From the UHGV virus genome UHGV-0389216: a DNA stretch of 42,736 nt; one strand, 5' to 3'. Source of the stretch: a virus. The notes beneath the pieces are model-generated. The model had not been told where the DNA came from and did not search any database. It saw only the letters and a list, made by a program, of their open reading frames with translations. Shown here piece after piece: positions 7,540-26,684 of the stretch (the stretch's first letter is position 1; each line of letters starts with the position of its first letter). Both the position numbers and the translations under genes were made by a program.

Positions 7540-8607
7540 TTATTGAAATTTATCTCGGATGAATTGCTGCGATGGTTTTTCAATGAATATATATGACATA
7601 TAGCTAATTGCCATTAATGTAAGCATGAATAAAATGAATACATTGGAGCTGTAAAAAAGATCGCGTCCATAGCCAATCCTGTCAGCTAAATAAACAGCAA
7701 TGATTTGCAAAGGAAAATGTAAAAGATAAGATGAATAACTGATATCACCCAACCATTCAATTTTCTTCCCAAAGTCGTTTCGCATTGCGCTAATTGATAC
7801 AAGGAAAAATATTATGGAGGTAAATCCAAATAAAATAATTGAGAATATATCTGCTACTTGCAGGATAAAAATAACTCCCCACGAGATTAATAGAAAAACA
7901 CAAGCGAAAATAAAAAATGATTTTGTGCCAATATTTTTTATGAACGCAATCGTAATTTTATAGGTCAGACCACCAATAAAGAAAGAGAATGCGCCGATCA
8001 TTATGGGATTGTTAATTTTGAAAAAGTAGTACGACAATGCAACTATTAAAATTGATATGAATGTTGTTTTTGATGTGAACTTGCATAATATAAAAAATAT
8101 CATGTACATAAGTACTTCAATCGACACGGACCATGTCGGTGCGTTGAAGGACCAACCTCGCTCAAATCCCCATGATTGAATCATCAATAAATTCAGAATG
8201 GCATGGTAAATGTCATTCATAGGATAAACAAAAAAATAATTATAACTTTTAAAGAAAATAATTTGTAATATTACCACGACAGCAAATGTAAATATATAAA
8301 GTGGATATAATCTACTGACACGGTTAACTATAAAAGTTTTTGCTGAGGTTTTATTGCTGTGTATATTGTCAGCGTATAGATAAAAAAATATGAATCCAGA
8401 AATCATAAAAAACAATTCGACAGCATATAAACCGTAATGATAAAAGACGGAAAAAAATTCATAAAAAGGTTGGCGGTTTATGATTATGTCAGATGCAGCA
8501 TTCTTTTTCATAAAAAAATGTTGCCAATGCCATAACACAACTGAAAGTGCGGCAAATCCTCTCAGAACATCTAGGGTATATATTCTTTTCCCAAAAACAT
8601 TCGTCAC
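7540..8607 (-). CDS. acyltransferase family 3 membrane protein, O-antigen acetylase-like
   Basis: 355 aa, GTG start. N-terminal LDVLRGFAALSVVLWHWQHFF motif and about 10 hydrophobic helices as in Oac/OafA-type acyltransferases; strongly AT-rich; opposite strand to tail genes. Confidence 0.75.
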   Translation of the reverse strand: MTNVFGKRIYTLDVLRGFAALSVVLWHWQHFFMKKNAASDIIINRQPFYEFFSVFYHYGLYAVELFFMISGFIFFYLYADNIHSNKTSAKTFIVNRVSRLYPLYIFTFAVVVILQIIFFKSYNYFFVYPMNDIYHAILNLLMIQSWGFERGWSFNAPTWSVSIEVLMYMIFFILCKFTSKTTFISILIVALSYYFFKINNPIMIGAFSFFIGGLTYKITIAFIKNIGTKSFFIFACVFLLISWGVIFILQVADIFSIILFGFTSIIFFLVSISAMRNDFGKKIEWLGDISYSSYLLHFPLQIIAVYLADRIGYGRDLFYSSNVFILFMLTLMAISYMSYIFIEKPSQQFIRDKFQ

Positions 8608-8849: not shown

Positions 8850-10260
8850 CGCTGACTCACACCTCATTTCCTGTGCGGGCTTTAAGCTCAAAGAATTATT
8901 CAGGTTTAGCGAGTCACGGTCTTACCTGTCGTTGTCATCACTCTGGCCGCCAGAGCAACCTTTCAGTATTCACCCTTTCATTAAAAGTTAATATTTATCG
9001 GTATCAGCGATTAATATGGTCTGATACTGACATGATTCTTGTCGTATTTACTTCCATGAGCTGCTATCGCCCATACTGTTCGTGCCAGTTTGTTTGCCAT
9101 GGCGACGATTGCCACGCTGGCTGGACGACGTTTTTTCAGTTCGGTTATCCACGGACCAGGTTCTTTGGTCAGTAATGCTGCCGCCCTTGCGCCATGAATA
9201 AACAAGGCTCGCAGATATGTATCACCACGTTTGCTTATCCCCAGCAGGCGGATTTTCCCTCCTGAGCCAGTCTGTTTGGGCACCAGACCAACATAAGCCG
9301 CGAACTCTCGCCCTGATTTAAACGCTGATGCTTCCCCCATGGTGGCCACCGCTGCCGTCGCAATAAGTGGCCCAACGCCGGGAATATCCAGCAACCGCTT
9401 ACAGGTTTCATTCTGTTTCGCCACGCTGGTAAGCTGTTTTTCAATATCCTCTATCAGTGAGTCCAGCTCATTCAGCCGGTTGTACTGGTTTTCCAGCACA
9501 GTAATGAGATACGGTGGCAGTCTCTCTTTCATCCGCTCCAGTGCTTCAGGGAACTCCCGCTCCATTGCTGCCCGACCTTTGTGAATTGTTTCACCAAATT
9601 CCAGGAGCGTGCCGTGCAGGGAGTTAATCTGCATGGTGCGGAACTTCACCAGTTGTCTGCGGGAACGATGCAGAACCAGTACCGACTGCTGTTCTTCTGT
9701 TTTGACAGCGATTTCCTTGCCGGGCTGTTGTACTGCCATCCAGATAGCCCGGGCATCCATAACATCGTTTTTATTACCCATGACGAACGCTTTAACGAAG
9801 CGGGCCTGCAACAACCGGACTTTATGACCCAGCTTTGTCAGTTCACGTGCCCAGTGCTGCGAGCCTCCACAGGCCTCCATACCAATCAGGCAGGGTTCCC
9901 GATTACAGAAGAACATCAGAAAATCCTGACGACGCAACTGCTTATCAATCACTTCACCTGTGTGCTCGTCGATGAAGTGAACCTGAATGACATGTTTTGC
10001 GATATCAACGCCAACCGGTGTATATTTCATTTGTGGAGTCTCCAGTCTGAAGGAGCTTTATGCATCCCGTATTGGGCACTATGATGCCGGAAATCTGCGA
10101 GGCTCCACACCTTCCTGTATTTCCCTTCATCTATCACTGTGCACCTTACTTAATGGGGGGGATGTGTTCATTACATTTCATGTATACCAGATGAAAGTGC
10201 ATGTTCTATGAAACAGGGTTTTGCCTGGAGTTTGAAGGGTTTTAAAGATTATACCTGTTT
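8850..10260 (-). mobile_element. IS110-family insertion sequence (boundaries approximate)
   Basis: Contains a single IS110-type transposase ORF with about 160 bp 3' and about 230 bp 5' non-coding flank. Exact ends not determinable by eye. Confidence 0.5.
9011..10030 (-). CDS. IS110-family transposase (DEDD-type)
   Basis: 339 aa starting MKYTPVGVDIAKHVIQVHFIDEHTGEV with ...GMEACGG...NDVMDARA..., the N-terminal DEDD fold pattern of IS110/IS1111 transposases; C-terminal domain follows. Confidence 0.85.
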   Translation of the reverse strand: MKYTPVGVDIAKHVIQVHFIDEHTGEVIDKQLRRQDFLMFFCNREPCLIGMEACGGSQHWARELTKLGHKVRLLQARFVKAFVMGNKNDVMDARAIWMAVQQPGKEIAVKTEEQQSVLVLHRSRRQLVKFRTMQINSLHGTLLEFGETIHKGRAAMEREFPEALERMKERLPPYLITVLENQYNRLNELDSLIEDIEKQLTSVAKQNETCKRLLDIPGVGPLIATAAVATMGEASAFKSGREFAAYVGLVPKQTGSGGKIRLLGISKRGDTYLRALFIHGARAAALLTKEPGPWITELKKRRPASVAIVAMANKLARTVWAIAAHGSKYDKNHVSIRPY

Positions 10261-11782: not shown

Positions 11783-12081
11783 CCGTATCATCATGAAAAT
11801 AAATATATTTTTATTTAATTTCACACATATCACAATTAATACAGCGTTTAGTAATTAGTAAAGACATTTCAATGGATTACCGTTAAATCATTTTAAAATC
11901 AGTAAGTTGTATCGAGTTTGTATGCTTTACTGTCATTAACTTACTGTATGTTGATCCAGTGTATTTAACCTTGATAAACTCAGTCCAGCAACACAAAACC
12001 GCAACACATTGCATTTTGTCCCGTAGAAAAGACTTGTATGTGTGAGCTTGTTTTCTGCGCCTACGCAGATAAGGATTGAGA

Positions 12082-13479
12082 ATGCCGCGCACTGTAACAC
12101 ATAATCCGGATAGCCCCAATAATGACGATGTTTTAGCCGCATCTGAAAAATGGGACGCCTGTAAACCCCCCTATACCAGCGCACACATGAAAATCTGTGT
12201 TGCTGCCGCCAAAATCATCCTCGCTGCTTCCGGCGTGGCTCGCCGTTCCAAATACGAAAAAGAGAACTATCTCCGTATCGATTTCAGCAAAGCCGGTAAG
12301 GTTACATTTTACGCCGAGTTTCCAAAAAAGATGGGCCTCAAGGGTAAAAAGCTCGGCGAGTGGCCGGAGCTCGCTATCCAGCTGGCGCGCGAAAAAGCGC
12401 TAGGTATGGCTGACTGTGGCCTGCGGGCAGAGTCCGTACATGCAGCGCTGGAAATGTACCGGGATGACCTCAAAGCCAAAGTCGCCCGGCAGAAGCTGAG
12501 CCCGGACAGTTTCACAACCTACGGGGTGCGTATCGACCGGATTAAAGCAACGTTCGGCGAGCGCGAGGTGTTCAGCGACGTAACATACAATCGGCTGGTG
12601 GAAGTGCTGGACGAGTGGATCGCTACTCGCTCGAACAATAACGCCCTGGAGTTGTTTGCCGAGCTCCGTCGGTTCTGGAAGTTCTGCGCACCTACTCTTT
12701 GCAACGGCCGCAATGTTGCCGCCAGTCTGCCAGATGATTATGTTTCCTCCCGCGTACAGAAACCTACCCCCACACGGCTTTTTACCGATATTGAATCAAT
12801 CGCCCGACTCTGGCTCAATGTTGCTGCCTGCACCTCTGTACACCAGAAGAATGCTGTTCGCTTCATGATCATCACTGGCGTTCGTCCGATTAATGTCCAT
12901 AACCTGCGCTGGGACTACGTTCACGAGGAGGCTGGTGAAATTGTTTATCCGGAAGGGGTTATCGGCATGCGAGGGGCTATGAAAACACAAAAGGCTTTCC
13001 GCCTGCCGATAACGCCTGAGATCCGGCGGATTATCGACGAGCAGAAAGCCTGGCGTGATTCAGTTCCTGAGTGCAACAGGGATTATGTATTTTTGCAGCC
13101 ACGTGATCCAATGCAGCCATTTTCAAAACGATCACTGGATAAGCTGGTGAAAACATACAGCCCGGACGGGGCTGTAAAAGGAATAAAACATGATGGGACT
13201 GTTAAAGGGAAAGACGGTGCATTTAATACGATGTGCCGTAAATTCCTTAAGAGCAATGTTATTGCCTTGATGAAGGAAAGAGGCTATTCCCGATCAGACC
13301 GAAGGGAAATCAGCCTCCTTTGCCTTCACCACTCCAGTAAGTCAGATGACCCGATGGCAGAACATTACGACTTTTCTGATGAGATTTTACAGGAAGAGAT
13401 TGCGTTAAAGCGCGAAGCTTTCGAGGCTCACGAGCGGAGCATACTTGCGCAGGTGGCATTGCTACGGCGGCGAGGTTAA
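12082..13479 (+). CDS. int: tyrosine-type site-specific integrase
   Basis: ATG 12082 preceded by AAGGA. Contains ...MIITGVRPINVHNLRW... and C-terminal ...LCLHHSSKSD...AEHY consistent with R/H/Y catalytic boxes; adjacent convergent AlpA/Xis-like gene. Confidence 0.7.
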   Translation: MPRTVTHNPDSPNNDDVLAASEKWDACKPPYTSAHMKICVAAAKIILAASGVARRSKYEKENYLRIDFSKAGKVTFYAEFPKKMGLKGKKLGEWPELAIQLAREKALGMADCGLRAESVHAALEMYRDDLKAKVARQKLSPDSFTTYGVRIDRIKATFGEREVFSDVTYNRLVEVLDEWIATRSNNNALELFAELRRFWKFCAPTLCNGRNVAASLPDDYVSSRVQKPTPTRLFTDIESIARLWLNVAACTSVHQKNAVRFMIITGVRPINVHNLRWDYVHEEAGEIVYPEGVIGMRGAMKTQKAFRLPITPEIRRIIDEQKAWRDSVPECNRDYVFLQPRDPMQPFSKRSLDKLVKTYSPDGAVKGIKHDGTVKGKDGAFNTMCRKFLKSNVIALMKERGYSRSDRREISLLCLHHSSKSDDPMAEHYDFSDEILQEEIALKREAFEAHERSILAQVALLRRRG

Positions 13480-13676
13480 TACCGGCTGCGACACTTTTGA
13501 ATAAAAGCATCGACATTGCGGCGCTCATAACGAACTACTTTTGCACTGAAACGAATTGGTGCCAGGATAGCCCGATGACGATGCTTAATATTCCACTCAC
13601 ATAGCGTTTTCTGTGTAATACCTAACTTTTGGCATACTTCATCCGGGGTGAGTAAATCGTCGGGTTTCTCGCTCAT
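13476..13676 (-). CDS. AlpA/Xis-family small DNA-binding protein (putative excisionase)
   Basis: 66 aa; ...LLTPDEVCQKLGITQKTLCEW... is a MerR/AlpA-like helix-turn-helix; last gene of early-left operon, abutting int. Confidence 0.65.
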   Translation of the reverse strand: MSEKPDDLLTPDEVCQKLGITQKTLCEWNIKHRHRAILAPIRFSAKVVRYERRNVDAFIQKCRSRY

Positions 13677-15129: not shown

Positions 15130-16047
15130 TTATAATAGTGCTGTTACTATTGCATCTTTAAAAATATTTTCTTCTTCATTTATTAAAGGTGATGACAGAT
15201 GAATAATTACTTCTTTTCCTGTCAATACTATTTGCTCGACTTGAAATCCTGCGTTGTGTAGTCTTTGGCGTAACTTTTCTAGTGCTGATTTTGATATACT
15301 AAATCCTTCACTCCTTATAGTATAACTGGCAACTCCATTTTTAATAATATCTACAGAGTTGTCAATTTCCTGCTGCGAGTAATTTTTCGGTGAGTCGAAA
15401 AATCTGGATTTTGTCGTTGCTGTTGCCCTAAGAGATATCAATAATGATTTGATATCTTTAATCTCAGATGCCAGATACTCAGTTTCTGATACTTCTTTCT
15501 GGTCTAGTTGTGCAACTTTGAAAGTGCCAAAATGTTTGAGGAATGTTGTGTATTCAGGATCAGTTACTGACTTTAAATATGTTTCTTTTATCTTGCTCGC
15601 AAGTCTTTCTTTGAATAAATTGATTGATTGGTATCTTAAATCCGAAGGGTACTCTAAATGTTCAATTGATGAAATGTCAAAGCTATAAGGAGTGCGCTCG
15701 TCCTTAATAATTACGGTCGGTTTGTCAAATGCGAGACGCATTCCTAATTCAAACATTACATTAGCGTTTCGAGCACTTATATCGCAAACAACTATGGGGT
15801 TTTCATAAAGATTTTGAACAATTCGTTTTTGTATTACTGCAACATCATCATCTGAACTTACCAAATTTGCCTTGAATCCGGCATCATTTGATGCTTCACA
15901 AATAATGTCATGAACATTTCTCCAATGTCCAGTGGGATAACCTTCTATGTCCGCAATTGGCATAATAATGCCGCATATATGAGGTGGCATATTTTTGTTG
16001 TCTTTTACATCATCTTGGTTTATTTCTTTCGTTTGTTGCTTAGCCAT
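15130..16047 (-). CDS. accessory protein with N-terminal Rossmann-like TIR/NDT-like domain and unknown C-terminal domain
   Basis: 305 aa. Residues about 20-140 show alternating hydrophobic strand/helix pattern with ...PIVVCDISARNANVMFELGMRLAFDKPTVII..., the NV-x-x-E-x-G motif class seen in nucleoside 2-deoxyribosyltransferase-like and TIR-like folds; AT-rich; hairpin terminator downstream. Confidence 0.45.
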   Translation of the reverse strand: MAKQQTKEINQDDVKDNKNMPPHICGIIMPIADIEGYPTGHWRNVHDIICEASNDAGFKANLVSSDDDVAVIQKRIVQNLYENPIVVCDISARNANVMFELGMRLAFDKPTVIIKDERTPYSFDISSIEHLEYPSDLRYQSINLFKERLASKIKETYLKSVTDPEYTTFLKHFGTFKVAQLDQKEVSETEYLASEIKDIKSLLISLRATATTKSRFFDSPKNYSQQEIDNSVDIIKNGVASYTIRSEGFSISKSALEKLRQRLHNAGFQVEQIVLTGKEVIIHLSSPLINEEENIFKDAIVTALL

Positions 16048-16347: not shown

Positions 16348-16541
16348 TAGCTTTCGCCTTCCTGCTTTTTGCGTTTCTTCATGCAGATAGCGCAGTTCTC
16401 AGGATGGTCATGCCATTCGTCAATCCTGATACCTGTGAACATCCATTTTCCGCATAGTGATATGGCTTCCCCCGAATTAAAGAAATGTGCTTTTTTCGAC
16501 AGGGCGGGGAACCCCCAACCTTTATTATCGATATTAGACAT
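16347..16541 (-). CDS. small Cys/His-containing protein, function unknown
   Basis: 64 aa; stop overlaps VRR-NUC start (ATGA); AAGGAGGTGGACG precedes ATG 16541; C/H cluster WHDHPENCAIC. Confidence 0.4.
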   Translation of the reverse strand: MSNIDNKGWGFPALSKKAHFFNSGEAISLCGKWMFTGIRIDEWHDHPENCAICMKKRKKQEGES

Positions 16542-16730
16542 CGTCCACCTCCTTACGCTTTTCGCGCATGTTCTGCATCAGACAAAAATCAAACCGACGT
16601 TCGCTTTGGCCCAGACCTGCATCGCCCGGTCGTACCCGCTGGACTGTTCAAGGCGCAAAGCCTCCCGCGCAGTCCGGTAATAAAGCGGACTGTCCCGGTA
16701 TTTAAATGACATAGGGTTTTTATTCCCAAA

Positions 16731-16753
16731 TAAAAAACCCCGCAATGCAGGGT
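16731..16753 (-). terminator. rho-independent terminator (minus strand) after TIR-like gene
   Basis: Minus-strand CCCTGC-ATT-GCGGGG hairpin followed by TTTTTT. Confidence 0.55.
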
Positions 16754-16776
16754 TGTAATCAACAATAAGGGGGTAA

Positions 16777-17538
16777 TTACGAGGAAGCGTTAGCTATTTG
16801 AGCTTGTGTAAATTCGAAACCAGAATTTTGTAACCGTTGCACTAGACGAGGAACTGTTTCACGTACATGGTCGTTGAAATTCAGATACAAAATCCCGTTA
16901 GCATCAGAAGGCTGTTCTAGGTGCTGTTTCTGAAGGATTGCTACATTGCTGCGCCCTAAGGACGAAAGAAGCATACCCATCTCGAGTACAACGTTCTGTC
17001 TTGCGCGGGGTTGGATTTCTGCTTCACCGGCGCGCTTTGAGTATCCCATATCATCAGGTGTCAAAAGAACAATCCCGAAACGGGTAGCAGTTTGTCCTTG
17101 CCCAATTTCACGTTCAAGCTCTTCAATAATGGTGAGTCCAGTCCCTCCCGTATTCTGCAAAATGAAATGGTCTGGTAATCCAAGTTTATGAAGGATTAGC
17201 TCAAGTTGTTCCTTTGCAGTATGGTCATGGCCGTGAACAATGAATATCTTTTTGGGAAGCTCAGATGGCTGTTCTACGGCTAGTGGTGTTGCCGTGGGGG
17301 GCGTTCCTAAATGGGACATTATTGCAGTTTCAACATTGGGACGTTCTTGAGGGTTACCTTGAAACTGAATGGTCCGGGTGGTGTAAAGGTTAACAATTAC
17401 GCCATTCGTTAAACGATAGCAGTCATAAGTCTCACGCTGTTCGTGGGAAAAATTGGTGAACCCACACTCCCTCAAAAAGTCAGGAAAAGATTCTCTCGGG
17501 TATGGATAGGTGATCGGCATTTCAGTTAGTTCCTGCAT
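16777..17538 (-). CDS. TIR-like (Cap12/PycTIR-type) nucleotide-binding domain protein with unassigned N-terminal domain
   Basis: 253 aa; C-terminal domain KKIFIVHGHDH...GIVLLTPDD...RQNVVLEMGMLLSSLGRSNVAIL matches the TIR-like predicted nucleotide-binding fold signature as I recall it; N-terminal 85 aa unassigned. Confidence 0.5.
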   Translation of the reverse strand: MQELTEMPITYPYPRESFPDFLRECGFTNFSHEQRETYDCYRLTNGVIVNLYTTRTIQFQGNPQERPNVETAIMSHLGTPPTATPLAVEQPSELPKKIFIVHGHDHTAKEQLELILHKLGLPDHFILQNTGGTGLTIIEELEREIGQGQTATRFGIVLLTPDDMGYSKRAGEAEIQPRARQNVVLEMGMLLSSLGRSNVAILQKQHLEQPSDANGILYLNFNDHVRETVPRLVQRLQNSGFEFTQAQIANASS

Positions 17539-17602
17539 AAGTATTGTTCCTTTAATTTACTCGAATTCAGCATGTCGCCATAGCTCGATAAGGTGAGTTA
17601 TA

Positions 17603-19699
17603 TCAATCTTTTTTGTAGTGGTACGCCTCAAAGCCGCCAGCGTTCAGCGGAATATCGGGTGCCCATTCGGGGTTAGTGGAGAGAAGCGCGGAAAGCGCTT
17701 TATCGTTGAAATCTTCTGTGTCTGGTGCTTCGGTGATCACCTCGTCGTGTACCGTTAGCACAATGCTGTAACCGGCACCCTCGATCAGCGGCATGTTTCT
17801 GGCCAGAACGTCGCGGGCGGCCGCCTGGGTGACGTTCTCCACCAGCTTTCCGCCGTAGGTTTTGAGTCGTTGCCATTTACGCGAATAAGAGTTAACACCC
17901 ATGTAGGTGATATTCCCTTGTTCGATAACCGGAGACGGGTAGCATACAGCGCGTCCGGATGGTAGCTGTATGCGCAGCCACGCGCCATCACGTCGGATTT
18001 TAAGATAGCCGCAATACAATGTTTTTTGCGGTGTGGCGATTGCTGTGCGGACAGTGCGCTCCAGCTCGTACCAGAAATCGCAGGTCGCCGGGTGCGCCCT
18101 GCGCCACAGGCGCTTGAGCGAGTCACATGCGATGAATACACGCTCGGACAGGCCAAAGGTCGACTTACGCTTAACCGATTCGTCGTACCAGCTTTTTGCC
18201 TCGCGGATAACATCGCGGGGAATGTTTGGCAGTGCGGCGTTCGCCAGCTCGTCGAGATCGAGACCGTAAACCAGAGCAAAAGTGATGAAAGCCGATACAC
18301 CACCTCCATAACCCAGACCGAGTTCCATGACTTTACCGATCTGACGCATGTGTTTATCAACATCATCTGGTGCAATATCGAAAGCTTTTGCATACGCCAG
18401 TTTATATAAGTCCGGACCCGTTCCAGCGTCATACTCTCTGAATGCATTCAGTTTCCATTCTTCTCCCGCCAGCCATGCCAGCATACGGCCTTCAATGTTT
18501 GACAAGTCACTTACCACTAGTTTTTTGCCTGTTGGCGCGATAATGCAGCCACGTAACGCTGAACTGGTTAGTTCCATGATATTGTCAAACAGCAGGTCTG
18601 CACATCCGGCTTTCAGTGCTTCGATGCCTTCGTCTATTTGTTCCTGTTTTAGTGAAGGGCGGGGAAGGTTCTGGGGCTGGAATAGCCGTCCGGCCCAACG
18701 ACCGGTACGTGATGCCCCGCAGAACTGTAGCGTACCGCGTAAGCGCCCGTCGTGGCTTACGCCTTTCATCAGTGCCTTGTATTTACTGGTGCTGGTAGTA
18801 CTGGCTTGCAGGCGGATAGCCAGCAGTTCTTTCACGGCAGATGATAAATCGGGGTCGGCCATACGACGTTCCAGGGTACTGCGTTGCATGTCTGGTAGCT
18901 CCACACCGTAGGATTCAACGATGTGCTTAATCAACGCGTCCCGTTGTGTGGCTGCCTGCACTTCGCCATCAGTCATTTCCTGTGTACGCTTTGCCAGGCG
19001 CTTTTGCTCCTGGTCTACCGCTTCGATCGCAGCGCGCGCGAGTTGCATGTCCATGCAGACGCCCCGGTCGTTGATCTGCTGATCACGATGCCAGAGCGCC
19101 AGCTCTGTCCCCTGATAATTCCACTTCGGCAGACGTTTATAGACTTCGCGCATTGCTTCGATATCCAGTCCGGCGTAAGCAACAAAGCGCCGCCATTCTT
19201 CCGGATGGGTTTTACTGGTGGCCCGACGCAGTTTGCTGTTTTTCGGACGTGGCTTACAGAACAGCTGGATCAGCGCTTTACCTTCTTTGTCCTTCGCTTT
19301 GTCTTGCGGGACGCCTAGTACTTCGCAGAGTTCCCCCAGAGACCCCGGGAGACCGTGCGCCAGCGCCTGCACCATCGTGTCGCGCCAACGTTCGACTGGC
19401 GGTGCCAGTCGCGGCATTGCATAACGCAGAACGGTGCGGTCGAAGTGAGAGTTATGGAAATAAAGCAGGGTTTCAGGGTCTGCGATTGCTTCGTATAAGC
19501 CGTGTGGAATACCACCACCGGCAGTGATATCCCACACGTTTACTGGCCCGTCGTTGATAGCCCATGCGAAAAGCATCACTTCAACGCCTTCGGCATACGC
19601 ATGGGTACCGTTCGTAATAGGGATTTCGCAATAGGTTTCCAGGTCGCCCCAGAGAATACTTTGATGTTGTTTATTTGAGGGGACTATATTATTTTTCAT
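17603..19699 (-). CDS. family A DNA polymerase with 3'-5' exonuclease domain
   Basis: 698 aa; Exo [10 protein letters not shown]; Pol motif A DLSNIEGR, motif [17 protein letters not shown], motif C VHDEV. Confidence 0.85.
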
Positions 19700-19733
19700 A
19701 TGGGCAAACTAGCTAATAAAGTTGAGGAAAAAA

Positions 19734-19937
19734 ATGTCTGAATCTAAGTTCAAACCTGGAGACCGCGTACAACATCTTTCTGGTGGGCCTGTTCTTGTGG
19801 TTGTTAGCACAGGATATATTCCTGCAACAGCTTTTAATGGCGACTTCATTCGCGTAACTTGTGAATTTTGGGATGAATCTAAAAAAGCTTTCGTAAAACA
19901 GGATTTTGTTGAAACTTCTCTTGAAGATTACGAATAA
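19734..19937 (+). CDS. DUF2158/YodC-like small protein
   Basis: ATG 19734 preceded by GAGG; KPGDRVQHLSGGPVLVVVS motif; only plus-strand gene inside the minus-strand operon. Confidence 0.55.
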   Translation: MSESKFKPGDRVQHLSGGPVLVVVSTGYIPATAFNGDFIRVTCEFWDESKKAFVKQDFVETSLEDYE

Positions 19938-19954
19938 CTCATAACACAATCCTC

Positions 19955-19976
19955 AAAGCGCCCCTAAGGGCGCTTT
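19955..19976. terminator. bidirectional hairpin terminator
   Basis: AAAGCGCCC-CTAA-GGGCGCTTT perfect 9-bp stem between convergent gene ends. Confidence 0.55.
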
Positions 19977-19981
19977 GGCGT

Positions 19982-23531: not shown

Positions 23532-24155
23532 CTAACGTTTACGGCGGTAAATACGGTGTTCGATCATTACACCTATGATCTGTAAGTTCATATCTGCACT
23601 ACGAAAAATAGGGTAATCAGGATTTAGGGGGATTAATTCAAAGTCGTCGATGCCGATTCCTAATGGACGGTATTTTTTAAATGTAGCTTCGTGACCGTCG
23701 TTTTTGGCGACAACAAACTCCCCTGGTGCAGGACATAGATCAGGATCGATGATAACAATGTCTCCTTCTTTAAACTCTGGTTGCATGCTGTCGCCATCGA
23801 TACGTAATGCGAAGCATGTTTCTGGAATGTCAGAGTCTGCCAAAATATATTCAAATTCCCCTGTCAGATCTGTTATGTCTCTTGCTTCTGTAAGCTCTCC
23901 TGCCTGAACGTAACTTAATATAGGTATGCGTCTGGTACTTATCTCCGCGAGAGGCATAATATTTTTACCGTTCAGTAGCCAGTCTGGGCTACATTTCAAG
24001 GCCTTAGCCAGATCCAGAAGATTGCGTGGCTTTCTGGTTCGTCCACTTTCGATGGATTCTATGGATTGTTGGCTAACCCCTGCAGAATTCGCTACTTCCA
24101 CTTGAGTCATTCCTAATTCCAAACGACGTGCTTTAAAACGGGCTGCGAGAGACAT
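23532..24155 (-). CDS. CI-like repressor (HTH plus S24 LexA-like peptidase domain)
   Basis: ATG 24155 with AGGA upstream; HTH MTQVEVANSAGVSQQSIESIESG; peptidase motif RIDGDSMQPEF; divergent from Cro-like gene. Confidence 0.85.
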   Translation of the reverse strand: MSLAARFKARRLELGMTQVEVANSAGVSQQSIESIESGRTRKPRNLLDLAKALKCSPDWLLNGKNIMPLAEISTRRIPILSYVQAGELTEARDITDLTGEFEYILADSDIPETCFALRIDGDSMQPEFKEGDIVIIDPDLCPAPGEFVVAKNDGHEATFKKYRPLGIGIDDFELIPLNPDYPIFRSADMNLQIIGVMIEHRIYRRKR

Positions 24156-24178
24156 GGGATTAGTCCTTCTGGGTTGTA

Positions 24179-24256
24179 TTAATGTGTATCCCCACATTAA
24201 AAACAATTTTTGTTGTATTTGACAAACCTCGTTTGTTGTTGCTAAATACCACTAAA
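24179..24256. promoter_or_regulatory. operator palindrome plus PR-like promoter of the immunity switch
   Basis: Perfect inverted repeat TTAATGTG-N6-CACATTAA (24179-24200); TTGACA (24219-24224), 18-bp spacer, TAAATA (24243-24248), then Cro start. Confidence 0.5.
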
Positions 24257-24491: not shown

Positions 24492-26684
24492 ATGTCCGAT
24501 AGCAAACCATGGGGAGCTACGCCTGATGAGTGGTTTCATTTCGACCTGGTATTGGGGAGAACTGATCATCTTCTCCCAGTTGTATGTAACCCCAGTGCGA
24601 CCATATCCCCTGATAGTAAACTGAAAGCGTTGGGTAAGACGCCGAGTCGCTATAACCGGGACCGCCAGGTCACCGGTATTGCTCAATGGACTGGGCATGT
24701 TGTTACTGAGCATGATTTTGCCCGCTGGTCGAATGAACCGGATTATGGCATCTGCGTGCGTACAGGCCATGGCTGGCTGGCGCTGGACTGCGATAGCGAA
24801 GATGAAGACATTCAGGCAGATATTCGCAAAACGCTTGTGCAACTTCTGGGGGAGTTGCCGCCGCGACGCTGGCGAGCAAACAGTAATAAGTGTCTGTATC
24901 TGCTGGCCGTTGATGGTGATTTCCGTAAACGTATCCATCGCCTGGCGGGGGATATGGGCATTATCGAGTTGCTGGCGAACGGGCAGCAGTTCGTTGCCTG
25001 CGGTACGCACAGCAGCGGCGCGCGTATTGAATGGGACGGCGGTTTGCCGGATGAACCTCCGGCTATTACTGGTGAGCAGCTTGAAACGCTGTGGCAGCGC
25101 CTGGCTGAACAACTCCCTGTGTCGGTAACCACCGAAGCGGGCAACACGAAGATGCGCGACCGATCAGCATTCACGCCCGGCGCGACGGATGATACAGCTG
25201 AATATCTTGATGCCAATGGCTGGACGCTGCTGGATGGCGCAAATGGTGAACGATATATCCGCTGTCCGTTTGAAGACGGCCACAGTAGCGGGGGCGATCC
25301 AACAAGCACAGTTTATTTTCCTGCGGGAACCGCGGGCTTTGAGCAGGGGCATTTTAAATGCCTGCATGCCAGTTGTGCGCATCGTGATGACGGAGATTTC
25401 CTTAATGCCATCGGGATCCGCAACGACGATTTCGAAGATCTGACCAGCATCGAAGTGGCGGAACCTTTACCGCTGCCTGCTTTCGAGCGTGATAAATGGG
25501 GGCGTATCGAGGCAACCATCAGCAACGCAGCCAAAGCAGTAGTACGCCCTGATTTTGTGGACATCGATATTCGCTTTGACCAGTTCCGCGACGAAATCAT
25601 GTTTGCCCCTGCAGGATCCGGACAATGGCGGGCATTCACCGATGCGGATTATGCGCGCCTGCGCATCACGATGGAAAAGCGGGGATTTAAACCTGTTGGC
25701 CGTGAACTTATTCGCGATGTGGTGTTACTTGCAGCCGATGAACAACCATTCGATTCAGCGATCACCTGGCTGAACGGACTGGAGTGGGATGGCGTGCCGC
25801 GCATCGAATGTTTCTACCATACGCACTTCGGTACCGCCGACACGCCTTATACCCGTGCGGTGTCTATGTACATGTGGACCGCGTTGGCGGGGCGAGTACT
25901 GGAGCCAGGCATCAAAGCGGATATGGTGCCGATCCTCGTTGGTCCGCAGGGCTGCGGTAAGTCTTCCGGAGTGGAGGCACTGAGCCCTGATCCTGCGTTT
26001 TTTACTGAAATCTCTTTTGCCGAAAAAGACGATGATCTCGCTCGAAAAATGCGTGGTCGGCTGGTGGCAGAGATTGGTGAACTGCGCGGACTTAATACCA
26101 AAGAGCTGGAGTCAATCAAAGCGTTTGTGACGCGTACTCACGAAAACTGGATCCCGAAATACCGGGAGTTCGCCACCCAGTTTCCTCGTCGCCTGGTGTT
26201 CGTTGGTACCACCAATGAGGACGAATTCCTTGCGGACAAGACTGGTAACCGTCGCTGGCTCCCCGTGGAAGTGTCGAAAGTCGACGTGAAAGCGATAAAA
26301 AGAGATCTCCTTTTACTTTGGGCTGAGGCTCGTGAGGTGTTTCAGCGTCTGGGGGGTATCCAGTTCCGTGAGGCTGAACAACTGGCAGCGAGTGTCCATG
26401 AACAGTACACCATCAAGGATGCTTGGCTTGAAACGGTAGAGAAATGGCTCGACACGCCAGACCTGATGACTAATGAACTTCCGCGAAATTGCGAATTTTT
26501 ACGCGCAAGTGATGTTTTGCGTGATGCGATTGGGCTAAATCCTGACCGCATCGGAAAACGCGAAGAAATGCGAATTAGTAATGTTTTGCAAAATTGCGGG
26601 TATAAGCGTGTTCAACGTCGTGTTGACGGAAAAATGACTCGAATTTTTGAGGCGGTGTCCCAACCTGTACCAGCCTCAAAATAG
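24492..26684 (+). CDS. bifunctional primase / P-loop NTPase (primase-helicase, P4 alpha-like)
   Basis: 730 aa; N-terminal prim-pol-like region, Cys/His cluster; C-terminal Walker A VGPQGCGKSS with downstream NTPase motifs. Confidence 0.8.
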   Translation: MSDSKPWGATPDEWFHFDLVLGRTDHLLPVVCNPSATISPDSKLKALGKTPSRYNRDRQVTGIAQWTGHVVTEHDFARWSNEPDYGICVRTGHGWLALDCDSEDEDIQADIRKTLVQLLGELPPRRWRANSNKCLYLLAVDGDFRKRIHRLAGDMGIIELLANGQQFVACGTHSSGARIEWDGGLPDEPPAITGEQLETLWQRLAEQLPVSVTTEAGNTKMRDRSAFTPGATDDTAEYLDANGWTLLDGANGERYIRCPFEDGHSSGGDPTSTVYFPAGTAGFEQGHFKCLHASCAHRDDGDFLNAIGIRNDDFEDLTSIEVAEPLPLPAFERDKWGRIEATISNAAKAVVRPDFVDIDIRFDQFRDEIMFAPAGSGQWRAFTDADYARLRITMEKRGFKPVGRELIRDVVLLAADEQPFDSAITWLNGLEWDGVPRIECFYHTHFGTADTPYTRAVSMYMWTALAGRVLEPGIKADMVPILVGPQGCGKSSGVEALSPDPAFFTEISFAEKDDDLARKMRGRLVAEIGELRGLNTKELESIKAFVTRTHENWIPKYREFATQFPRRLVFVGTTNEDEFLADKTGNRRWLPVEVSKVDVKAIKRDLLLLWAEAREVFQRLGGIQFREAEQLAASVHEQYTIKDAWLETVEKWLDTPDLMTNELPRNCEFLRASDVLRDAIGLNPDRIGKREEMRISNVLQNCGYKRVQRRVDGKMTRIFEAVSQPVPASK

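What the first reader, a model, noticed from the sequence alone, without database searches (positions are those of the whole stretch)
16777..17538. TIR-like (Cap12/PycTIR-type) domain fusion protein embedded in the phage replication operon
The 253-aa product has a C-terminal domain with KKIFIVHGHDH ... GIVLLTPDD ... RQNVVLEMGMLLSSLGRSNVAIL, which I recognise as the signature of the TIR-like nucleotide-binding fold used by CBASS Cap12 / Pycsar PycTIR-type effectors. The N-terminal 85 aa (MQELTEMPITYPYPRESFPDFLRECGFTNFSHEQRETYDCYRL...) is unassigned and could be a sensing or partner-binding module. The gene interrupts an otherwise coherent replisome operon (polymerase, this gene, Zn protein, VRR-NUC) and has its own hairpin plus U-run terminator (16731-16753), so it looks like an acquired moron. 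A phage-borne TIR-like protein could be an abortive-infection/exclusion effector or an anti-defence enzyme acting on nucleotide immune signals.
Basis: partly seen in the sequence, partly recalled or inferred. Interest (0 to 1): 0.8.

Follow-up and report, generated by a model that had tools for sequence, protein, structure and literature searches.

The report
Prophage TIR-type NADase defence cassette
A real 253-aa gene in a temperate E. coli phage joins a small, fast-evolving sensor-like domain to a Cap12-type TIR domain that probably destroys NAD+; it sits in a swappable slot behind the phage DNA polymerase and is most likely an untested anti-phage gene, already catalogued as candidate PDC-S35.

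Summary
ORF 16777-17538 (minus strand, 253 aa) matches Pfam PF10137 (Cap12/Pycsar TIR) at E=2.9e-31. It keeps the SfSTING active-site residues: R180/N182/E186/D212 correspond to R78/N80/E84/D110. E186 is conserved in 145 of 149 distant representatives.

The moron reading is supported. Identity to sibling prophages is 88-100% in the polymerase, drops to 38-70% exactly between the polymerase stop and the next gene's start, then returns to 95%. One sibling has nothing there; others carry a different small gene. A hairpin terminator follows the gene in 18 of 19 distinct variants.

It is not a CBASS or Pycsar component: there is no STING or cNMP-binding domain and no cyclase.

The whole protein matches PADLOC candidate PDC-S35 (E=1e-108), a family nobody has tested. 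GenBank and RefSeq already annotate the gene as a TIR-domain protein.

Best reading (about 0.55): a prophage-borne, single-protein abortive-infection or exclusion NADase whose N-domain controls TIR assembly. The trigger is unknown, and expression in lysogens is unproven. This is a new member of a known kind, of moderate interest.

The parts
16777..17538 (-). Whole CDS, 253 aa plus stop: TBP-like N-domain, disordered linker, Cap12-type TIR domain. Identical to RefSeq WP_167788921.1 'TIR domain-containing protein'.
17305..17517 (-). N-terminal domain, residues 8-78. Topology is helix, four antiparallel strands, helix. TBP-like fold of the RNase HIII-N / RnlA NTD-NRD type, with a G46...T56-x3-Q60-G61 motif. 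It evolves fast.
17251..17304 (-). Linker, residues 79-96. Low confidence, not conserved, variable in length.
   Evidence: pLDDT below 50 for residues 80-93; 15% mean identity; indels in alignment A1
16780..17250 (-). TIR domain, residues 97-253 (PF10137). Invariant motifs: F-x-V-H-G-H-D (99-105), N-x2-G-x-G-L-T-I-x-E (129-139), T-P-D-D (160-163), R-x-R-Q-x-V-V-L-E-x-G (178-188), P-S-D (210-212).
16981..16983 (-). Codon GAG for Glu186, the predicted catalytic glutamate, equivalent to SfSTING E84.
   Evidence: Read directly from the sequence; alignment to 7un8; residue roles from PMC9402430; conserved in 145 of 149 representatives
16726..16754 (-). Intrinsic terminator-like hairpin (AACCCTGC-ATT-GCGGGGTT) plus T-run. 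It starts 23 nt after the stop codon and ends about 13 nt before the ANR start codon.
   Evidence: A comparable hairpin plus T-run, with different stem sequences, is present in 18 of 19 distinct downstream sequences of cassette variants.
17539..17602 (-). 64-nt upstream spacer of the cassette, with a Shine-Dalgarno AAAGGAAC at 17546-17553. It holds only a weak, positionally conserved -35/-10-like pair (ATGGCG-16-TAAATT), which lies too close to the ATG to be convincing.
16714..17602 (-). The exchangeable cassette (spacer, gene and terminator) between the PolA stop codon and the ANR start codon.
   Evidence: Alignment with siblings that have no insert or a different insert. Nucleotide identity steps from 88-100% to 38-70% and back to 95-97% at these edges. 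GC is about 45-47% against 52-58% in pol.
17603..19699 (-). Upstream flank: family-A DNA polymerase.
16534..16712 (-). Downstream flank: ANR-family regulator, frameshifted pseudogene in this lineage.

Best explanation
This is a self-contained accessory cassette (ribosome-binding site, gene, terminator) carried by a lambdoid-style temperate E. coli phage, in a cargo slot just after its DNA polymerase gene. The product is a single-polypeptide sensor-effector. A highly conserved Cap12/PycTIR-clade TIR domain most likely hydrolyses NAD+ once TIR domains pack against each other. As in TIR-STING, an Asp (D212) from a neighbouring TIR would complete the active site around Glu186. The small, fast-evolving TBP-like N-domain would keep the enzyme off until it meets a cue from an infecting phage. 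That cue could be a nucleic-acid structure such as an RNA:DNA hybrid, or a phage protein. NAD+ loss would then abort the infection, which protects the lysogen population and excludes competitor phages. Shown here: domain identities, conservation of the catalytic constellation, cassette boundaries, the terminator, purifying selection, and the distribution of the family. Inferred: NADase activity, activation by oligomerisation, the trigger, expression in the lysogen, and the anti-phage phenotype.
For: Evidence on the TIR domain:
- PF10137 matches at E=2.9e-31.
- The closest solved sequences and folds are the NADase effectors Cap12/TIR-STING and PycTIR.
- R180/N182/E186/D212 align with SfSTING R78/N80/E84/D110. 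In that protein, D110 acts in trans after filament formation.
- These residues are 87-99% conserved over 150 representatives at 50% identity clustering.

Evidence from defence catalogues and genomic context:
- The whole protein matches PADLOC PDC-S35 at E=1.3e-108. That family was nominated because members lie embedded in BREX, DISARM or type I RM loci.
- Distant homologues sit on integrase-bearing islands beside Mrr-type nuclease, PemK toxin and SMC-like ATPase genes.

Evidence for a sensor-effector architecture:
- The same TIR domain is fused to other N-terminal modules (YEATS, receiver domain, unknown). The TBP-like domain is found in 76 of 150 representatives.
- The N-domain diverges about ten times faster: dN/dS 0.13-0.32 against 0.00-0.05, and 35% against 73% identity.

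Evidence from the cassette and its carriers:
- Sibling prophages carry other defence-like cargo in neighbouring slots: SIR2, DUF4145/HEPN, Mrr.
- Two alleles, about 72% identical in protein, lie behind polymerases that are 97-98% identical.
- A terminator inside an operon, conserved as a feature across variants, makes most sense if the cassette is transcribed when the operon downstream, which ends in the excisionase gene, must stay silent.
- The family is seen in prophages and islands. In the 50,697 phage records it appears only in three near-identical temperate phages and one Salmonella fragment.
Against: - No member of this family has been tested. PDC systems are explicitly untested candidates, and no paper in the library names PDC-S35.
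- No convincing sigma-70 promoter precedes the gene. It lies on the same strand as an early replication operon downstream of the CI-type repressor, so it may be made only during lytic growth.
- The polymerase-TIR adjacency has co-diverged with core replication genes across genera: TIR 70% and 63% identity against pol 73% and 75%. That would also fit a role in the phage's own cycle.
- The N-domain is mildly acidic (pI 5.5 here, median 6.25), which argues against simple nucleic-acid binding of the RNase HIII type.
- The full-length model has only moderate confidence (pLDDT 75, pTM 0.52), and no oligomer model could be made.
Confidence: 0.55

Rival explanations
1. It is a counter-defence enzyme made early in the lytic cycle with the replisome. 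The TIR-fold N-glycosidase would destroy or pre-empt host immune nucleotides (cADPR isomers, other ADPR-derived signals), or lower NAD+ to disarm NAD-dependent defences.
For: The gene lies on the same strand as PolA, about 64 nt behind it, with no clear promoter of its own. The adjacency is conserved and has co-diverged with core genes in Serratia and Providencia prophages. Viral enzymes of the wider TIR/DrHyd/SLOG class have been proposed to degrade ADPR-derived signals (PMC9503650).
Against: Most of the family is chromosomal or island-borne in defence-like settings and is catalogued as a defence candidate. It was not seen in virulent phages. The residues kept are those of the NADase effectors, including the trans-acting Asp. 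A mid-operon terminator is awkward for a gene expressed only as part of the operon. TIR domains are under-represented in viruses in the published survey.
Confidence: 0.12
2. It is a signal-producing TIR of the Thoeris ThsB type, whose product activates an effector encoded elsewhere. One candidate is the neighbouring 305-aa protein with a TIR/NDT-like motif.
For: Many bacterial TIRs make cADPR-type signals. The 305-aa ORF two genes downstream has NV-x2-E-x-G and P-S-D motifs parallel to the TIR domain (hhalign E=1.4e-4; PADLOC TIR effector E=1.1e-6).
Against: PF10137 TIRs form the effector clade containing Cap12 and PycTIR. There is no hit to ThsB-type models. No gene partner is conserved across contexts. 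The 305-aa gene accompanies the TIR gene in only 4 of 39 polymerase-linked viral loci. PADLOC treats the family as single-gene.
Confidence: 0.08
3. It is a nucleotide or nucleic-acid N-glycosidase serving replication or DNA modification, rather than an NADase. The TBP-like domain would hold a nucleic acid or nucleotide substrate, and the TIR-fold domain would cleave a base-sugar bond, as nucleoside deoxyribosyltransferase-like enzymes do.
For: It sits in a replication operon whose sibling slots hold NDT-like DUF4406, Nmad5 nucleotide-modification genes and methyltransferases. The TIR, DrHyd and SLOG folds share N-glycosidic chemistry. Foldseek also lists the CMP N-glycosidase BcmB, weakly at E=0.022. 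The N-domain's best structural match is the hybrid-binding domain of RNase H3.
Against: The NDT family does not hit this protein in Pfam. All significant sequence and fold matches are TIR NADases. The N-domain is acidic. The gene is dispensable, being absent from 122 of 159 related E. coli prophages.
Confidence: 0.1
4. It is inert hitch-hiking cargo with no current function.
For: It is absent from most sibling prophages, and the adjacent ANR gene is a pseudogene.
Against: The ORF is intact in all 27 distinct alleles examined. The TIR domain has dN/dS of 0.00-0.05 even where synonymous sites are saturated. Catalytic residues are invariant.
Confidence: 0.02

Closest known systems
CBASS effector Cap12 (TIR-STING, e.g. 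SfSTING; PDB 7UN8/7UNA, 9LMQ/9LMR)
   Same: Same Pfam TIR family (PF10137). It is the best solved sequence and fold match. R/N/E of helix alpha-C and the trans-acting Asp are conserved. The likely chemistry (NAD+ hydrolysis) and likely activation by TIR-TIR packing are the same.
   Different: There is no STING domain, and the domain order is reversed (sensor at the N-terminus here, TIR at the N-terminus in Cap12). No CD-NTase gene is nearby. The NCBIfam Cap12 equivalog scores 35 bits against a cut-off of 450. The activating ligand therefore cannot be assumed to be a cyclic dinucleotide.
Pycsar effector PycTIR (PDB 8JSJ)
   Same: Same TIR family and the same helix alpha-C motif (ARDNVxLEFG compared with ARQNVVLEMG).
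   Different: Only the TIR part matches (PADLOC PycTIR positions 188-272 of 288, E=1e-8). There is no cNMP-sensing region and no pyrimidine cyclase neighbour.
PADLOC phage defence candidate PDC-S35
   Same: Full-length match including the N-domain (E=1.3e-108, profile positions 3-245 of 245). Single-gene architecture.
   Different: Nothing structural. PDC-S35 is only a bioinformatic nomination (guilt by embedding in BREX, DISARM or RM-I loci) with no published test, mechanism or domain description of the N-terminus.
[quoted passage not shown]
   Same: The fold and the G-x-[ILV]-x-[ILVF]-Q-G strand-turn motif of the N-domain. In RnlA/LsoA the same kind of domain is joined to a toxic effector (a HEPN RNase) in an anti-phage toxin.
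   Different: Sequence similarity is marginal: below Pfam gathering thresholds for the window protein. The domain is acidic, unlike a typical nucleic-acid binder. It is fused to a TIR domain instead of an RNase.
SPARTA / short pAgo TIR-APAZ systems
   Same: A TIR NADase switched on by a separate recognition module, leading to NAD+ depletion. These structures appear among the fold matches (8QLP, 8ISY, E about 7e-3).
   Different: There is no Argonaute, no APAZ and no guide. The protein is one 253-aa chain. Nucleic-acid sensing here is only a hypothesis.

Membership tests
Pfam PF10137 CAP12/Pycsar-type TIR domain | Profile HMM score above the curated gathering threshold | tested here: met
   108.4 bits against 24.7, E=2.9e-31, residues 97-222 covering profile positions 1-118 of 119
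Pfam PF10137 CAP12/Pycsar-type TIR domain | Catalytic glutamate on helix alpha-C with the R-x-N phosphate/ribose contacts | tested here: met
   R180, N182 and E186 align with SfSTING R78, N80 and E84. E186 is present in 145 of 149 representatives.
Pfam PF10137 CAP12/Pycsar-type TIR domain | TIR (flavodoxin-like) fold closest to solved Cap12 TIR domains | tested here: met
   The top nine Foldseek PDB hits are TIR-STING chains, E=1e-5 to 1e-3, probability 1.00. The TIR part of the model has only moderate confidence, pLDDT 65-85.
Pfam PF10137 CAP12/Pycsar-type TIR domain | NAD+ glycohydrolase activity | not testable with these tools
   Requires an enzyme assay
CBASS Cap12 (TIR-STING) effector | Cyclic-dinucleotide sensor domain (STING or SAVED) fused to the TIR | tested here: not met
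   The non-TIR part is an 80-aa TBP-like domain. NCBIfam Cap12 equivalogs score 34.8 and 30.5 bits against a cut-off of 450.
CBASS Cap12 (TIR-STING) effector | Operon with a CD-NTase | tested here: not met
   The neighbours are PolA and an ANR pseudogene. No homologue context showed a nucleotidyltransferase next to the gene. The rest of the window was not scanned with CD-NTase models.
Pycsar PycTIR effector | Full-length match including the cNMP-responsive region, and an adjacent PycC cyclase | tested here: not met
   Only profile positions 188-272 of 288 match. There is no cyclase neighbour.
PADLOC PDC-S35 (single-gene defence candidate) | Full-length HMM match | tested here: met
   PDLC05003 at E=1.3e-108, residues 10-253 on profile positions 3-245 of 245
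PADLOC PDC-S35 (single-gene defence candidate) | Acts alone, with no conserved partner gene | tested here: met
   The flanking genes differ among Vibrio, metagenomic, Serratia, Providencia and Salmonella contexts. The small upstream ORFs in two contexts are unrelated to each other.
PADLOC PDC-S35 (single-gene defence candidate) | Demonstrated protection against phage | not testable with these tools
   PDCs are described as untested. No paper in the library mentions PDC-S35.
Thoeris ThsB-type signalling TIR | Linked effector gene with a signal-sensing domain (SLOG, Macro and similar) | tested here: not met
   No conserved neighbour. The 305-aa TIR/NDT-like neighbour co-occurs in only 4 of 39 loci. 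No ThsB Pfam hit.
TBP-like domain of RNase HIII-N / RnlA type (N-terminal 80 aa) | Helix, four-stranded antiparallel sheet, helix fold closest to RNase H3 N-domains | tested here: met
TBP-like domain of RNase HIII-N / RnlA type (N-terminal 80 aa) | Sequence-profile membership (PF15935 or PF11858 above gathering score) | tested here: inconclusive
   The window protein scores 15.4 bits against 27. Nine of 29 family members hit PF15935 (best E=8.9e-5) and two hit PF11858. The profile against PDB gives LsoA at E=0.015 and RNase HIII at E=0.066.
TBP-like domain of RNase HIII-N / RnlA type (N-terminal 80 aa) | Binds RNA:DNA hybrid | tested here: inconclusive
   There is no assay. Charge argues against binding (pI 5.5; median 6.25; only three conserved basic positions).
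Phage moron (independently transcribed accessory cassette) | Present or absent between conserved flanks in sibling phages | tested here: met
   37 of 159 E. coli genomes with the flanks carry it. The slot is empty in L004 and holds a different gene in L002 and L003. The identity steps are sharp.
Phage moron (independently transcribed accessory cassette) | Own terminator | tested here: met
Phage moron (independently transcribed accessory cassette) | Own promoter / expression from the repressed prophage | tested here: inconclusive
   Only a 7-of-12 match, placed 15 nt from the ATG. Transcript mapping is needed.

The most novel reading that the evidence does not exclude
The 80-aa TBP-like domain is itself the receptor. 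It would recognise a replication-associated nucleic-acid structure (for example an RNA:DNA hybrid, as the RNase HIII N-domain does) or a specific phage protein, and so license TIR filament formation. That would make this the smallest known one-chain, ligand-to-NADase immune switch. The natural allele pairs, with nearly identical TIR domains and N-domains about 45% identical, would encode different phage specificities. Its fixed place behind the polymerase could mean the phage uses it during its own replication to eliminate co-infecting rivals.
Probability: 0.15. Interest if true: 0.7.

Novelty: new member of a known kind. Interest (0 to 1): 0.42.

Why it matters
If the function is confirmed, PDC-S35 would move from a computed candidate to a working defence system, with an unusually small protein (253 aa) that is easy to dissect. 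It would add a TBP-like module to the list of sensors that control TIR NADases. It also offers a ready-made natural experiment. Prophages with near-identical flanks carry alleles whose TIR domains are almost unchanged while the N-domains differ strongly, so domain swaps could map what sets phage specificity. The locus also documents several cargo slots inside a replication operon, holding TIR, SIR2, HEPN-like, Mrr and methyltransferase genes. Such slots are a useful place to look for further prophage-borne defence genes.

Tried and rejected
- **Literature on the family.** Searches for PDC-S35, Cap12 with 'TIR-like', and the vB_EcoM phage names found nothing. Searches for TBP-like/TIR fusions found only general papers.
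- **Two-gene, Thoeris-like system with the 305-aa neighbour.** Rejected, because the two genes co-occur in only 4 of 39 loci.
- **A conserved small upstream partner ORF in distant homologues.** Rejected, because the two ORFs are unrelated.
- **A promoter for the cassette.** Only weak matches were found, too close to the start codon. This remains unresolved.
- **Simple nucleic-acid binding by the N-domain.** Weakened by its acidic charge.
- **Recent one-off acquisition in E. coli.** Rejected, because the polymerase-TIR adjacency and comparable divergence are seen in Serratia and Providencia prophages.
- **Positive selection in the N-domain.** Not shown. dN/dS is 0.13-0.32, which is relaxed but below 1. 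The few near-identical alleles have 2-3 non-synonymous and 0 synonymous changes, too few to judge.
- **Structure searches.** The afdb50 fold library was unavailable. The viral structure library gave no close match.
- **One Pfam call failed** on wrong coordinates and was repeated.

Full report
**1. The observation**

It is preceded by a Shine-Dalgarno AAAGGAAC and a 64-nt spacer after the stop codon of a family-A DNA polymerase (17603..19699). It is followed, 23 nt after its stop, by an 8-bp GC-rich hairpin with a T-run (16754..16726, minus strand).

The window is about 99.7% identical over this region to three deposited temperate phages, Escherichia phages vB_EcoM-606R2, -689R2 and -611R5. Those records already label the gene "TIR-like domain-containing protein". 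RefSeq calls the same protein "TIR domain-containing protein", WP_167788921.1.

**2. The C-terminal domain**

- Pfam PF10137 (CAP12/Pycsar effector TIR) matches residues 97-222 at E=2.9e-31.
- Against all PDB sequences, the only hits are two Cap12 TIR-STING proteins and PycTIR.
- An AlphaFold2 model built on 57 homologues (pLDDT 75) finds TIR-STING chains as its nine best Foldseek matches, E=1e-5 to 1e-3.
- The HMMER alignment to 7UN8 has a constant offset of 8 from native SfSTING numbering. It places R180, N182, E186 and D212 on SfSTING R78, N80, E84 and D110.
- According to the cryo-EM paper, those are the phosphate/ribose contacts, the catalytic glutamate, and the Asp that enters the partner's active site only after filament packing (PMC9402430).
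- E186 is invariant in 57 close homologues and present in 145 of 149 aligned representatives of 50%-identity clusters. T-P-D-D, R-x-R-Q-N and P-S-D are conserved to a similar degree.

**3. The N-terminal domain**

It folds with high confidence (pLDDT about 90) as helix, four antiparallel strands, helix.

- A profile of 29 N-domains hits the LsoA NRD at E=0.015 and Aquifex RNase HIII at E=0.066, through the shared G-x-[ILV]-x-[ILVF]-Q-G motif.
- Nine of 29 members hit Pfam RnlA_toxin and two hit DUF3378.

It is therefore a TBP-like domain of the RNase HIII-N/RnlA type. In RNase HIII that domain helps bind RNA:DNA hybrids (PMC3710099, PMC3597702).

Here, however, the domain is mildly acidic (pI 5.5; family median 6.25) with only three conserved basic positions. 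Nucleic-acid binding therefore cannot be assumed.

**4. The family**

There are 2703 homologues at 90% clustering and 8421 clusters at 50% identity. The roughly 250-aa two-domain form is widespread in Proteobacteria and metagenomes.

- About half of the top 150 representatives carry the TBP-like domain. Others join the same TIR domain to YEATS, receiver or unknown N-terminal regions.
- The N-domain averages 35% pairwise identity and the TIR domain 73%.
- Among phage alleles, the TIR domain has dN/dS 0.00-0.05 and the N-domain 0.13-0.32.
- The whole protein matches PADLOC PDC-S35 at E=1.3e-108. PDC families were nominated because members lie embedded in BREX, DISARM or type I RM loci, and they are explicitly untested. 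No paper in the library names PDC-S35.
- Distant homologues lie on integrase-bearing islands next to Mrr-type nuclease, PemK toxin, SMC-like ATPase and relaxase genes, with no conserved partner.

**5. The cassette**

Of 5426 complete E. coli genomes, 159 carry the flanking polymerase/VRR-NUC DNA but only 37 carry the TIR gene. In sibling prophages the polymerase stop is followed either directly by an ANR-family regulator gene (L004) or by an unrelated 204-nt gene (L002, L003).

Against prophages whose polymerase is 97-98% identical, nucleotide identity behaves as follows:
- it is 88-100% up to the polymerase stop;
- it falls to 38-70% across 17606..16714;
- it returns to 95-97% at the ANR start.

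Those prophages carry a second allele of the same cassette that is about 72% identical in protein. GC content is 45-47% in the cassette against 52-58% in the polymerase.

Other findings on the cassette:
- In 39 of 80 IMG/VR loci the gene lies about 60-68 nt behind PolA.
- The same adjacency exists in Serratia and Providencia prophages, with TIR identity (70%, 63%) similar to polymerase identity (73%, 75%).
- A Salmonella relative keeps the gene in a different slot, upstream of the polymerase.
- A hairpin plus T-run follows the stop codon in 18 of 19 distinct downstream sequences, with different stem sequences.
- Neighbouring slots in sibling prophages hold SIR2, DUF4145 (HEPN-like), Mrr, Nmad5, DUF4406, methyltransferase, BRO-N and Rha/Arc genes.

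**6. Expression**

The replication genes form a minus-strand operon downstream of a CI-type repressor (23532..24206, HTH plus S24 peptidase). The operon ends at an excisionase-like gene and the integrase.

No convincing sigma-70 promoter precedes the TIR gene. A positionally conserved -35/-10-like pair scores only 7 of 12 in the window, and it lies so close to the ATG that the ribosome-binding site would be lost.

The conserved terminator suggests that the cassette is transcribed when downstream lytic genes must stay off. This is an inference only.

**7. Interpretation**

The best-supported reading is a prophage-borne, single-protein abortive-infection or exclusion effector. The TIR domain would be an NADase of the Cap12/PycTIR clade, activated by TIR-TIR packing. 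The TBP-like domain would be the variable regulatory or sensing part.

It is not a CBASS or Pycsar component:
- there is no STING, SAVED or cNMP domain;
- there is no cyclase gene;
- the Cap12 equivalog scores 35 bits against a cut-off of 450.

It is not a Thoeris pair either. The 305-aa neighbour with a parallel NV-x2-E-x-G / P-S-D motif accompanies it in only 4 of 39 loci.

Counter-defence, a replication-linked glycosidase role, and signalling remain possible but less supported. Decay is excluded by the selection data.

**8. Novelty**

The domain call and the defence-candidate status are already public. New here are:
- the assignment of the N-domain;
- the residue-level mapping to the SfSTING active site, including the trans Asp;
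- the exact cassette boundaries and the allele exchange behind conserved flanks;
- the contrast in evolutionary rate between the two domains.

Overall this is a new member of a known kind, of moderate interest, and readily testable.

Noticed in passing
window 15130-16047 (-): A 305-aa ORF in the next cargo slot (between VRR-NUC and the SNF2 helicase) is very AT-rich (GC 31-38%). It belongs to a large unannotated family (4466 homologues, no Pfam domain) with a conserved N-terminal part of about 200 aa and a variable C-terminus. Its motif NVMFELGM...EYPSDLR parallels the TIR motif NVVLEMGM...EQPSDAN (hhalign E=1.4e-4; PADLOC TIR effector E=1.1e-6; Pfam Cap12-TIR E=0.011, NDT E=0.1). It may be a second, divergent TIR/NDT-fold accessory protein.
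   Followed up: partly
window 16534-16712 (-): The gene just after the terminator is a frameshifted ANR-family regulator. It has lost about 40-55 nt relative to intact copies in sibling prophages, and RefSeq flags it as a pseudogene.
   Followed up: yes
L038, L048, L052 versus window 16714-17602: Two alleles of the TIR cassette, about 72% identical in protein, lie behind polymerases that are 97-98% identical. In allele L033 the TIR domain is almost identical in protein (dN 0.006) despite saturated synonymous change (dS about 1.5), while the N-domain differs strongly (dN 0.49).
   Followed up: partly
window 19700-19981; L003, L013, L015, L099: The slot between the ssDNA-binding protein gene (DUF2815) and the polymerase is also variable. 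Siblings carry SIR2, DUF4145 (HEPN-like), Mrr-type nuclease, Nmad5 or BRO-N genes, often on the opposite strand. This window has only a 71-aa plus-strand ORF (19722-19937) with no Pfam hit.
   Followed up: partly
window 7540-8607 (-) and 9011-10030 (-): An Acyl_transf_3 acyltransferase, possibly a surface-polysaccharide modification or lysogenic conversion gene, and an IS110-family transposase lie between the tail region and the integrase.
   Followed up: no
window 23532-24206 (-), 24492-26684 (+): A CI-like repressor (HTH plus S24 peptidase) and a divergent VapE-like primase/helicase mark the lysis-lysogeny switch. The replication operon containing the TIR gene runs leftward from there to the excisionase-like gene (13476-13676) and the integrase (12076-13479).
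   Followed up: no
window versus ON470588 / ON470579: The window is a circular permutation of these roughly 42.7-kb phage records (record position 1 corresponds to window 13673). It stops matching them just past the polymerase start, where they carry a different 630-nt gene.
   Followed up: no
L005 7716-7976; L009 7721-7933: In two distant bacterial contexts a small ORF (86 aa and 70 aa) lies 25-68 nt upstream of the TIR gene. The two ORFs are unrelated in sequence, and the phage cassette has no equivalent.
   Followed up: yes
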